DNA of 64,000 bases, from NCBI RefSeq assembly GCF_024298765.1, contig NZ_CP101210.1. The stretch is one strand, 5' to 3'. Shown piece by piece: positions 50,299-51,072 of the stretch; position 1 is the first letter of the stretch, and each line of letters starts with the position of its first letter. Below the pieces are notes generated by a model. The model made no database searches. It had not been told where the DNA came from and saw nothing but the letters and a program-made list of their open reading frames with translations. A program made the position numbers and the translations under genes. This DNA comes from Escherichia coli (GTDB lineage Bacteria; Pseudomonadota; Gammaproteobacteria; Enterobacterales; Enterobacteriaceae).

Positions 50299-51072
50299 TC
50301 AAAAATTAGGTGAGTAACGGACCGGGGACATAGCTCCTTTTTTTCTTAATTCATCTGGTATTTTTTTTCCAAGATAAAGATTTGCTATTTCAGGTGGGGC
50401 TTCTCGACCTTCAAAACCATAGCGAGAACTTTGTGTTGCCTCAAAGTCAGGATCCTCGTCCCAGTATTTCATCGTAGGGAAATTTTCACGTGTTGATTTG
50501 AGCCATTTATCAGCAATGAAAACCCCTCGAACGATCCCCCTTACAGTAGCAAGAATGACTTCTGCTTGGCTGGCGCGAGAGACATTAATGCGCCAGCTAA
50601 ATCGAACCGCATCATAAAGCTCTGAATCCTTTGCACTTCTGTTAACGGAAATCATTAATGCTTTATGATGAAATATTATGGTTTCGGGTTGATATGTTGC
50701 TATCAACTCTTTGACATGCGCGGCGCCGAATTCATTGCTGCCAGCACCATTCATGATATTCGTTAACCCAGGGTAGGCATCAATAAGTGCAGCTTCAACT
50801 TCGTACGCCGTCTTTTCATCAGTCATTCCGTGTCGATGGATGACATGGATAACTTCAAGTCCTGCTAACCTTATTTCTCTAATTTGCTTTAGCTTGTTGC
50901 TCAGTAACTCGTCATCATCAGTCGCTGCCACTTCACCGCGCATATGGGCAAATACGCGGTTACCTTTGCCTTTCCCTACATAGAAGGTGCTTCCGTCCCT
51001 CGGATCAATCAATCGGTATACATACCAGCCAAGGTGTTCAATTACTCCAGAAGGAAACTCAGTAATATCCAT
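50299..51072 (-). CDS. GIY-YIG nuclease-domain protein (257 aa) with uncharacterised C-terminal domain
   Basis: N-terminal [28 protein letters not shown] closely resembles the UvrC-type GIY-YIG motif; AT-rich by eye; divergent from the methyltransferase. Confidence 0.6.

What the first reader, a model, noticed from the sequence alone, without database searches (positions are those of the whole stretch)
50299..51072. GIY-YIG-domain protein of unknown function beside the RM system
The N-terminus ([28 protein letters not shown]) reads like a UvrC/Cho-type GIY-YIG nuclease motif, but the protein is only 257 aa with an unassigned ~150-aa C-terminal domain. It sits in an AT-rich cargo island between the tail-fibre invertase and a divergently transcribed Dcm-family methyltransferase. 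It could be a standalone defence nuclease, an accessory nuclease of the RM module, or a homing-type endonuclease.
Basis: partly seen in the sequence, partly recalled or inferred. Interest (0 to 1): 0.6.

Follow-up and report, generated by a model that had tools for sequence, protein, structure and literature searches.

The report
Known anti-phage nuclease CMoRE (PD-T4-3)
The gene encodes CMoRE (PD-T4-3), an already characterised and crystallised single-gene defence nuclease that cuts the hydroxymethyl-/glucosyl-cytosine DNA of T4-like phages; here it is prophage cargo beside, but independent of, an EcoRII-type restriction system, so the finding is real but ordinary.

Summary
The ORF at 50299-51072 (minus strand, 257 aa) is real and intact. 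It is not of unknown function. It matches the PADLOC model PD-T4-3 over its full length (E = 4.7e-140). It is 98.1% identical (252/257) to E. coli O157:H7 CMoRE, whose crystal structure (PDB 9U75/9U8D) and biochemistry were published in 2026. [quoted passage not shown] An N-terminal GIYxY-YIG nuclease is held back by an acidic lid loop, and a novel C-terminal domain senses 5hmC/5ghmC. It works as a tetramer, cuts CN11/N9G and blocks T2/T4/T6. Every residue named in that paper is present here: Y17, Y19, Y31, R80, V92, L96, Y127 and the four-residue acidic run. The gene is a self-contained cassette of about 1 kb (window 50242-51270), with a conserved upstream region and a hairpin terminator. It is the first cargo gene after the tail-fibre invertase of a ~40-kb prophage integrated at ssrA. 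It occurs in 837 of 5426 complete E. coli genomes, and only about 30% of these have the EcoRII-type RM next door. It is therefore a stand-alone defence gene, not an RM accessory and not a homing endonuclease. Novelty: already known.

The parts
50299..51072 (-). [quoted passage not shown]
   Evidence: ORF. PADLOC PD-T4-3 E = 4.7e-140 over aa 1-256 of a 256-position model. PDB 9U75 E = 2.4e-171, 252/257 identical.
50743..51072 (-). N-terminal GIYxY-YIG nuclease domain (about aa 1-110), with Y17, Y19, Y31 and the acidic autoinhibitory run D52-D53-D54-E55
   Evidence: Pfam PF22945 aa 28-110, E = 3.7e-14. Residues checked. Their roles come from mutagenesis in PMC12923530. The domain limits are approximate.
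50302..50715 (-). C-terminal 5hmC/5ghmC-sensing domain (about aa 120-257; Y127 main-chain O contacts the 5-hydroxyl)
   Evidence: No Pfam match. Aligns without gaps to the crystallised proteins. Y127 is conserved. The function comes from the 5hm-dCTP co-crystal structures. The limits are approximate.
51073..51270 (-). Conserved upstream (promoter/leader) region that travels with the gene, with a weak sigma-70 candidate TTGTGA-17 nt-TAATAT about 30 nt before the ATG
   Evidence: Homology with the O157:H7 and CS18F loci, which have different neighbours, runs to window 51270-51277 and then breaks; alignment. The consensus scan found no promoter above its threshold on this strand, so the hexamers are my reading. 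The native promoter of the O157:H7 allele drove defence.
50240..50278 (.). Hairpin between the convergent invertase and CMoRE genes, with T-rich tracts on both strands; a probable bidirectional terminator and cassette boundary
   Evidence: RNA fold of the CMoRE-sense strand gives -21.3 kcal/mol, z = -3.3. Homology with K-12 e14 ends at 50243, just after the pin stop codon. In L004 a copy of the hairpin lies at each end of the block.
49651..50241 (+). Context: pin/Gin-type serine invertase of the tail-fibre switch (the annotated start in relatives corresponds to about 49687)
   Evidence: NCBIfam serine-recombinase hits. Annotated pinE in the near-identical locus. Inverted repeats 47749-47768 / 49606-49625 flank the invertible segment.
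51437..52912 (+). Context, not part of the system: Dcm/M.EcoRII-family C5 methyltransferase (probable start 51479)
   Evidence: NF007772 E = 1.5e-279. PADLOC MTase_II. The RefSeq gene is 1434 nt.
52947..54161 (-). Context, not part of the system: EcoRII-family type II restriction endonuclease
   Evidence: PDB 1NA6 (EcoRII) E = 3e-243 over aa 1-403. PADLOC REase_II E = 1.9e-234.
54326..54416 (.). Context: attR, covering the 3' end of ssrA (tmRNA gene 54390-54752, minus strand) plus 64 bp downstream; it is repeated at 14529-14619 (attL)
   Evidence: tmRNA. 51-bp exact repeat within a ~91-bp near-exact repeat. The integrase ORF is at 16253-17425.
14529..14619 (.). Context: attL copy of the ssrA 3' end, marking the other end of the ~40-kb prophage
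   Evidence: The flanking chromosomal glaH/lhgO/gab genes were mapped through L008.

Best explanation
The gene encodes CMoRE (PD-T4-3), a one-protein type IV restriction system carried as cargo by a temperate phage. Tetramers survey incoming DNA. The C-terminal domain binds 5-hydroxymethyl- or glucosyl-hydroxymethyl-cytosine, the bases T-even phages use to escape classical RM. The N-terminal GIYxY-YIG nuclease then makes double-strand cuts at a fixed distance between two modified cytosines (CN11/N9G, 2-nt 3' overhangs) and destroys the phage genome without killing the cell. An acidic loop (DDDE, residues 52-55) covers the active site, so ordinary and 5mC DNA are not cut; that includes host DNA methylated by Dcm or by the neighbouring M.EcoRII-type enzyme. 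What is shown here: family membership, conservation of the functional residues, the self-contained cassette and its prophage location. What is taken from published work on the 98%-identical O157:H7 protein: the enzymology and the phage phenotype. What is inferred: that it complements the adjacent EcoRII-type RM, with unmodified DNA handled by the RM and hypermodified DNA by CMoRE.
For: Full-length PADLOC PD-T4-3 match, E = 4.7e-140. It is 98.1% identical to crystallised O157:H7 CMoRE and 84.8% to the APEC O1 protein, without gaps. Y17/Y19/Y31, R80, V92, L96, Y127 and the run D52-D53-D54-E55 are all present. The five differences (T51A, E55D, I133T, Q169K, N197H) remove no Arg, Tyr or catalytic Glu, and E55 matches the APEC O1 enzyme. 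Published results: about 10^5-fold protection against T2/T4/T6 from the native promoter; cleavage and binding of 5hmC/5ghmC DNA but not C or 5mC DNA; T4(C) escapes; active-site mutants are dead; the 4A loop mutant is toxic; tetramer mutants are inactive. Independent support: deleting PD-T4-3 in its native host sensitises that host to Tevenvirinae, and a 48%-identical homologue is modification-dependent. Independence from the RM: the gene is in 837/5426 genomes, adjacent to this MTase in about 242, and has other neighbours in O157:H7 and CS18F. Its own ~200-bp upstream region and terminator hairpin are conserved across contexts.
Against: Nothing was measured for this exact allele. Two of the five substitutions (T51, E55) lie in or next to the autoinhibitory loop, so expression level, stringency and phage range could differ slightly. 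No sigma-70 site above the scan threshold was found upstream. The APEC O1 allele defended only weakly from its native promoter, so activity from the native promoter is not guaranteed. In one native host a related phage escaped PD-T4-3.
Confidence: 0.93

Rival explanations
1. It is an accessory or second nuclease of the adjacent EcoRII-type RM system and depends on that system functionally, for example through regulation by the C5 methyltransferase or sensing of its methylation.
For: It is divergently transcribed from the MTase across a 364-406-bp AT-rich spacer. About 93% of copies of this RM allele (244 of 262 records at >=99% identity) lie beside CMoRE. The 4.2-kb block is shared intact by unrelated prophages.
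Against: The dependence runs one way only: about 70% of CMoRE genes have no such RM beside them, and O157:H7 has an AraC-family gene there. The O157:H7 gene alone gives full defence in BL21(DE3). The enzyme neither binds nor cuts 5mC DNA. All 274 systems surveyed by the authors were single-component.
Confidence: 0.03
2. It is a free-standing GIY-YIG homing endonuclease (I-TevI / Seg-like) that promotes its own spread rather than defending the host.
For: Weak PHROG 314 'homing endonuclease' hit (E = 0.0038, nuclease domain only). Jumbo-phage homologues are annotated 'putative homing nuclease'. The gene lies at a recombination-prone cassette boundary.
Against: No NUMOD, HTH or zinc-finger DNA-binding modules were found. 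The C-terminal domain binds 5hmC. Cleavage depends on modification and has no strict sequence requirement across the T4 genome. There is a strong experimental defence phenotype.
Confidence: 0.01
3. It is CMoRE, but its relevant targets here extend beyond hmC/ghmC phages to other hypermodified DNA, such as Mu-type carbamoylmethyl-adenine or arabinosyl-hmC. On this view it mainly serves the prophage in competition with other phages.
For: The 48%-identical Capnocytophaga homologue degrades Mu DNA at high concentration and defends against Mu when induced. The gene is phage-borne here and in lytic jumbo phages.
Against: For the E. coli alleles only T-even specificity was reported. Activity on Mu needed overexpression.
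Confidence: 0.15
4. The allele is silent or decayed: it is not expressed from the prophage, or it has been inactivated.
For: No strong promoter consensus and no obvious Shine-Dalgarno sequence. The APEC O1 allele is weak from its native promoter.
Against: The reading frame is full-length and every functional residue is intact. The upstream 200 bp is nearly identical to that of the O157:H7 gene, which works from its native promoter. The gene is 95-100% conserved in 837 genomes.
Confidence: 0.04

Closest known systems
CMoRE / PD-T4-3 of E. coli O157:H7 (PDB 9U75, 9U8D) and APEC O1 (9U7U, 9U7Z); Liu et al., Nat Commun 2026 (PMC12923530); first found in ECOR68 by Vassallo et al. 2022
   Same: Same length and same two-domain architecture. 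98.1% and 84.8% identity with no gaps. GIYxY-YIG motif, acidic lid loop, tetramer-interface residues and Y127 are all conserved. The same position after a pinE-type invertase in O157:H7 prophages.
   Different: Five conservative substitutions relative to O157:H7 (T51A, E55D, I133T, Q169K, N197H). Here an EcoRII-type RM follows the gene, where O157:H7 has an AraC-family gene.
McrA (EcoKMcrA) of the K-12 cryptic prophage e14
   Same: It occupies the same slot, immediately after pinE at the prophage end. It is also a one-protein type IV enzyme directed at modified cytosine (homology between the two prophages stops at the pin stop codon).
   Different: Unrelated protein: by established knowledge McrA has an HNH nuclease and an N-terminal 5mC/5hmC reader. 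It has the opposite orientation, and it acts on 5mC/5hmC but not glucosylated DNA.
Other modification-dependent type IV enzymes for hmC/ghmC DNA (GmrSD, PvuRts1I/AbaSI family, SRA-domain enzymes)
   Same: Same logic: a modification reader fused to a nuclease, with cleavage at a fixed distance from two modified cytosines. The published CN11/N9G pattern resembles that of the PvuRts1I family (plus established knowledge).
   Different: A different nuclease fold (GIY-YIG, against PD-(D/E)XK or HNH/DUF), and a reader domain for which the authors found no structural homologue.
UvrC / Cho N-terminal GIY-YIG domain
   Same: The closest structural relative of the nuclease domain, sharing the catalytic Tyr/Arg/Glu arrangement.
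   Different: CMoRE has an extra Tyr (GIYxY), a 15-residue acidic insertion and no UvrC C-terminal modules. It has no role in repair.

Membership tests
CMoRE / PD-T4-3 | Full-length similarity to the PD-T4-3 profile and to the crystallised proteins | tested here: met
   PADLOC PDLC04031 E = 4.7e-140, aa 1-256 against model positions 1-255 of 256. 9U75 E = 2.4e-171, 252/257 identical.
CMoRE / PD-T4-3 | 'GIYxY-YIG' motif: three tyrosines, Y17, Y19 and Y31 | tested here: met
   W16-Y17-V18-Y19 ... F30-Y31-V32-G33; defined as the family hallmark.
CMoRE / PD-T4-3 | Inserted acidic autoinhibitory loop with four consecutive acidic residues | tested here: met
   D52-D53-D54-E55, the same run as in the APEC O1 enzyme; O157:H7 has DDDD.
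CMoRE / PD-T4-3 | Catalytic Arg and Glu of the GIY-YIG core | tested here: met
   The paper's text gives no residue numbers. However, none of the five differences from the active O157:H7 enzyme affects an Arg, and the only one affecting a Glu is E55 in the acidic loop, so the catalytic residues are retained. R39 and E91/E93 are the likely ones (inference).
CMoRE / PD-T4-3 | C-terminal modification-sensing domain (Y127 contact) and tetramer interface (V92, L96) | tested here: met
   Gap-free alignment through aa 257; Y127, V92, L96 and R80 are identical.
CMoRE / PD-T4-3 | Single-component: no obligatory partner gene | tested here: met
   The neighbours vary (RM, AraC-family gene, IS elements, capsid remnant) while the ~1-kb cassette stays constant.
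CMoRE / PD-T4-3 | Cleaves 5hmC/5ghmC DNA and restricts T-even phages | not testable with these tools
   Shown for the 98%-identical protein and in a native host, not for this allele.
GIY-YIG homing endonucleases (I-TevI / Seg) | GIY-YIG domain joined to sequence-specific DNA-binding modules (NUMOD, HTH, Zn finger), in an intron or free-standing beside a target allele | tested here: not met
   Pfam finds only the GIY-YIG domain. The PHROG 314 hit has E = 0.0038 and covers aa 17-133 only.
GIY-YIG type II restriction enzymes (Eco29kI, Cfr42I, Hpy188I) or RM accessory nuclease | Obligatory cognate methyltransferase that protects host DNA | tested here: not met
   About 70% of E. coli copies lack the adjacent MTase. 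No PADLOC REase_II hit for this protein.
UvrC / Cho excision nucleases | GIY-YIG domain followed by the UvrB-interaction, RNase H-like endonuclease and HhH domains (UvrC), or the Cho architecture | tested here: not met
   No NCBIfam family at all and no such Pfam domains.

The most novel reading that the evidence does not exclude
The 4.2-kb block made of the CMoRE cassette and the EcoRII-type RM (window 50241-54417) is a co-selected, two-layer defence module: the RM for unmodified DNA and a type IV enzyme for hypermodified DNA. It moves as a unit between unrelated temperate phages, using the terminator hairpin and the ssrA att core as junctions. In support, about 93% of copies of this RM allele sit beside CMoRE. 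The identical block lies at the tail-fibre end of a Mu-tail prophage at ssrA, of lambdoid prophages at ssrA and at the pao/ykg locus, and on a 30-kb plasmid record.
Probability: 0.35. Interest if true: 0.3.

Novelty: already known. Interest (0 to 1): 0.12.

Why it matters
For annotation, this gene, which RefSeq calls a 'LEM-3-like GIY-YIG domain-containing protein', should be labelled CMoRE/PD-T4-3, a type IV restriction enzyme against T4-like phages. That is relevant to choosing therapeutic phages for the roughly 15% of E. coli strains that carry it. The locus adds no new biology. Its modest value is as an example of a prophage-end cargo slot: the position after the tail-fibre invertase holds CMoRE here, McrA in K-12 e14 and other genes elsewhere. 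It also shows classical RM paired with a modification-dependent nuclease in one small, transferable block.

Tried and rejected
1. NCBIfam gave no family for the protein, which is why public annotation stays generic.
2. The Pfam GIY-YIG core model alone was insignificant (E = 0.47); only the LEM-3-like model was significant.
3. The promoter/terminator consensus scan found nothing relevant on the minus strand.
4. I first assumed the window was colinear with strain 2015C-3163, the 100% match for the gene. It is not colinear outside the cargo region, so I mapped the left prophage end through another genome.
5. I looked in the CMoRE paper for the catalytic Arg/Glu residue numbers and found none in the text. 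Conservation was argued from the list of substitutions instead.
6. The PD-T4-3 name is not in the main text of Vassallo et al. 2022, which mentions only 'a GIY-YIG nuclease'.
7. I tested whether the hairpin element also bounds the 5' side of the cassette in the window. There is no second copy within 3 mismatches, and my gapped pattern had the wrong spacing. The resemblance is clear only in strain CS18F, so I dropped the idea for the window.
8. I did not run structure prediction or fold search, because a crystal structure of a 98%-identical protein exists.

Full report
**Observation**

The window has an ATG-started ORF at 50299..51072 on the minus strand. It encodes 257 aa, and residues 16-43 are the quoted [28 protein letters not shown]. 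Pfam places a LEM-3-like GIY-YIG domain at aa 28-110 (E = 3.7e-14) and nothing on aa 111-257.

- A pin/Gin-type serine invertase lies at 49651-50241 (+).
- A Dcm-family C5 methyltransferase is divergently transcribed (ORF 51437-52912; NF007772 E = 1.5e-279; probable start 51479 by comparison with the 1434-nt RefSeq gene).
- A convergent endonuclease lies at 52947-54161 (-) and belongs to the EcoRII family (PDB 1NA6, E = 3e-243).
- GC is 0.434 for the gene, 0.355 for the spacer and 0.429 for the whole cargo, against 0.545 for the phage structural genes.

**What the gene is**

The protein matches the PADLOC model PD-T4-3 from end to end (E = 4.7e-140). It also matches PHROG 5356, a family of unknown function (E = 2.3e-143). 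NCBIfam has no model for it, which explains the generic RefSeq name 'LEM-3-like GIY-YIG domain-containing protein'.

Against PDB sequences it aligns without gaps to two crystallised proteins:
- 9U75/9U8D, E. coli O157:H7, E = 2.4e-171.
- 9U7U/9U7Z, E. coli APEC O1, E = 7.1e-150.

Identity is 252/257 (98.1%) and 218/257 (84.8%) respectively.

These entries belong to Liu et al., Nat Commun 2026 (PMC12923530), who renamed PD-T4-3 as CMoRE (Cytosine Modification Restriction Endonuclease). They report the following:
- The single gene, expressed from its native promoter in BL21(DE3), lowers T2/T4/T6 plating by about 10^5 without abortive infection.
- The purified enzyme needs Mg2+ or Mn2+. It cuts and binds 5hmC and 5ghmC DNA but not C or 5mC DNA.
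- T4(hmC) is restricted, whereas T4(C) escapes.
- Cleavage follows CN11/N9G with 2-nt 3' overhangs and needs two modified cytosines.
- The N-terminal domain is a UvrC-like GIY-YIG fold with an extra tyrosine (GIYxY-YIG; Y17, Y19, Y31).
- A 15-residue acidic loop covers the active site. Replacing its four acidic residues (mutant 4A) gives activity on ordinary DNA and makes the protein toxic.
- The protein is a tetramer, and V92S/L96S abolishes both assembly and defence.
- The C-terminal domain has no known structural relative. It binds 5hm-dCTP, with the main-chain O of Y127 contacting the 5-hydroxyl.

Two other papers support this independently. Deleting PD-T4-3 in the clinical isolate NILS69 sensitises it to Tevenvirinae. 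A 48%-identical Capnocytophaga homologue is a modification-dependent nuclease.

**Residue-level check**

Y17, Y19, Y31, R80, V92, L96 and Y127 are all present in the window protein. The acidic run is D52-D53-D54-E55, the same as in the APEC O1 enzyme. The five differences from the active O157:H7 enzyme are T51A, E55D, I133T, Q169K and N197H (window residue first). None removes an Arg, a Tyr or a catalytic Glu.

**Anatomy of the locus**

The gene lies inside a prophage of about 40 kb.
- The tmRNA gene is at 54390-54752 (-).
- Its 3' end plus 64 bp downstream (54326-54416) is repeated at 14529-14619, with 51 bp exact and about 91 bp near-exact.
- The integrase ORF is at 16253-17425, and chromosomal glaH/lhgO/gab genes lie beyond attL.
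- CMoRE and the RM therefore sit at the end of the prophage opposite the integrase, between the tail-fibre inversion module and attR. Inverted repeats at 47749-47768 and 49606-49625 flank the invertible segment.

Pairwise BLAST against loci with other neighbours gives sharp boundaries:
- Homology with K-12 e14 stops at 50243, just after the pin stop codon.
- Homology with the O157:H7 loci covers 49606-51270, which is the invertase, CMoRE and 198 bp upstream.
- A lambdoid prophage (L004) shares exactly 50241-54417.

The CMoRE unit is therefore about 1.03 kb (50242-51270). Its upstream region is conserved in all five contexts aligned. A hairpin at 50240-50278 lies between the convergent pin and CMoRE genes (-21.3 kcal/mol, z = -3.3). 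This is the classic 'moron' layout: a promoter, a gene and a terminator. The promoter hexamers I propose (TTGTGA-17-TAATAT) are weak and fall below the scan's threshold.

**Relation to the RM system**

- The gene occurs in 837 of 5426 complete E. coli genomes, at 95-100% identity.
- A query spanning CMoRE and the methyltransferase is at least 80% covered in only 242 genomes.
- A query spanning the invertase and CMoRE is at least 80% covered in 564 genomes.
- In O157:H7 the gene after CMoRE encodes an AraC-family regulator. In strain CS18F the neighbours are IS elements and a capsid remnant.

CMoRE therefore does not need the RM, in agreement with the single-gene experiments and with the authors' survey of 274 single-component systems.

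The reverse association is strong. Of 262 records carrying this RM allele at >=99% identity, 244 have CMoRE adjacent. The block occurs on several backbones:
- Lambdoid prophages at ssrA (ST131 strain MB1159).
- Lambdoid prophages at the pao/ykg locus (KKa014; 2017-03-3CC).
- A 30-kb plasmid record, together with pinE.

The simplest reading is that the RM inserted once next to an existing CMoRE cassette, and the two have since travelled together. The pairing makes biological sense, although this part is inference. EcoRII-type restriction handles unmodified CCWGG DNA, and CMoRE handles phages that evade RM through hmC or ghmC. The 5mC made by the methyltransferase is not a CMoRE substrate.

**Alternatives**

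- *RM accessory nuclease.* Rejected for the reasons above.
- *Homing endonuclease.* The only support is a weak hit confined to the nuclease domain (PHROG 314, E = 0.0038) and legacy annotations of jumbo-phage homologues. There are no homing-type DNA-binding modules, and the published cleavage depends on modification, not on a target allele.
- *UvrC/Cho.* The resemblance stops at the fold of the nuclease domain.
- *Silent or decayed allele.* Unlikely, given the intact frame, the conserved residues and an upstream region close to that of the functional O157:H7 gene. This was not measured.

**Comparison and novelty**

This is a member of a known, structurally and biochemically characterised family: PD-T4-3, first reported in 2022, and renamed CMoRE in 2026. 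It is nearly identical to one of the crystallised proteins. Nothing in the sequence suggests a new variant.

One point is of some interest. The slot after the pin-type invertase at the prophage end is a variable cargo position:
- It holds McrA, another type IV enzyme directed at modified cytosine, in K-12 e14.
- It holds DUF2335 and hypothetical genes in strain 85.0412.
- It does not exist in P2-like phages, where the invertase is internal.

**Verdict**

Interest is 0.12.

Noticed in passing
window 49651-50298, compared with L006 (K-12 e14) 6686-8180: The position immediately after the pin-type invertase at the prophage end is a variable cargo slot. It holds CMoRE here, mcrA (also a type IV enzyme for modified cytosine) in e14, and DUF2335 plus hypothetical genes in strain 85.0412. 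Homology between the prophages stops at the pin stop codon.
   Followed up: partly
window 50241-54417; L004 6001-10209; L013; L014; L012: The 4.2-kb CMoRE + M.EcoRII-like + R.EcoRII-like block is shared at more than 99% identity by unrelated prophage backbones (Mu-tail type and lambdoid), at two chromosomal sites, and by a 30-kb plasmid record. In L004 it ends inside a copy of the ssrA att core and has the 40-bp terminator hairpin at both ends. About 93% of copies of this RM allele lie beside CMoRE.
   Followed up: partly
phage records ON287376.1, MK994515.1, MF285618.1, JN627160.1, MN642089.1: Full-length CMoRE homologues (39-45% identity over aa 1-254, both domains) occur in lytic jumbo phages of Serratia, Pectobacterium, Pantoea, Pseudomonas (OBP) and Klebsiella (N1M2). 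They are annotated 'homing nuclease' or hypothetical. They may be weapons against co-infecting phages with modified DNA.
   Followed up: no
window 47749-47768 and 49606-49625: A 20-nt inverted repeat (95% complementary) flanks a 1.84-kb invertible tail-fibre segment. The segment carries alternative fibre C-termini and assembly genes on opposite strands (48119-48538 +, 48510-49115 -, 49112-49660 -), next to the invertase. This is a Gin/Pin-type host-range switch.
   Followed up: partly
window 15051-15866 (+) and 15850-16239 (+): Two ORFs of unknown function (PHROG 17809 and 5176; no PADLOC hit) lie between attL and the integrase. This is another typical prophage cargo position, and they could be an uncharacterised accessory or defence pair.
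   Followed up: partly
window 23917-24615 (+): The prophage encodes an orphan N6-adenine DNA methyltransferase (PADLOC MTase_II PDLC03263, E = 4e-156; annotated 'phage N-6-adenine-methyltransferase' in a related strain). It is probably an anti-restriction or self-protection function.
   Followed up: no
window 14529-14619 and 54326-54416: The prophage att repeats extend about 64 bp beyond the 3' end of ssrA (about 91 bp near-identical, 51 bp exact). The phage attP therefore carries the sequence downstream of ssrA as well as the tmRNA 3' end.
   Followed up: partly
window 17634-18524 (-): A 296-aa ORF of unknown function next to the integrase (PHROG 12528, E = 9e-174) has a weak PADLOC hit to Csx27 (E = 1.4e-5). 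The hit is probably not meaningful.
   Followed up: no
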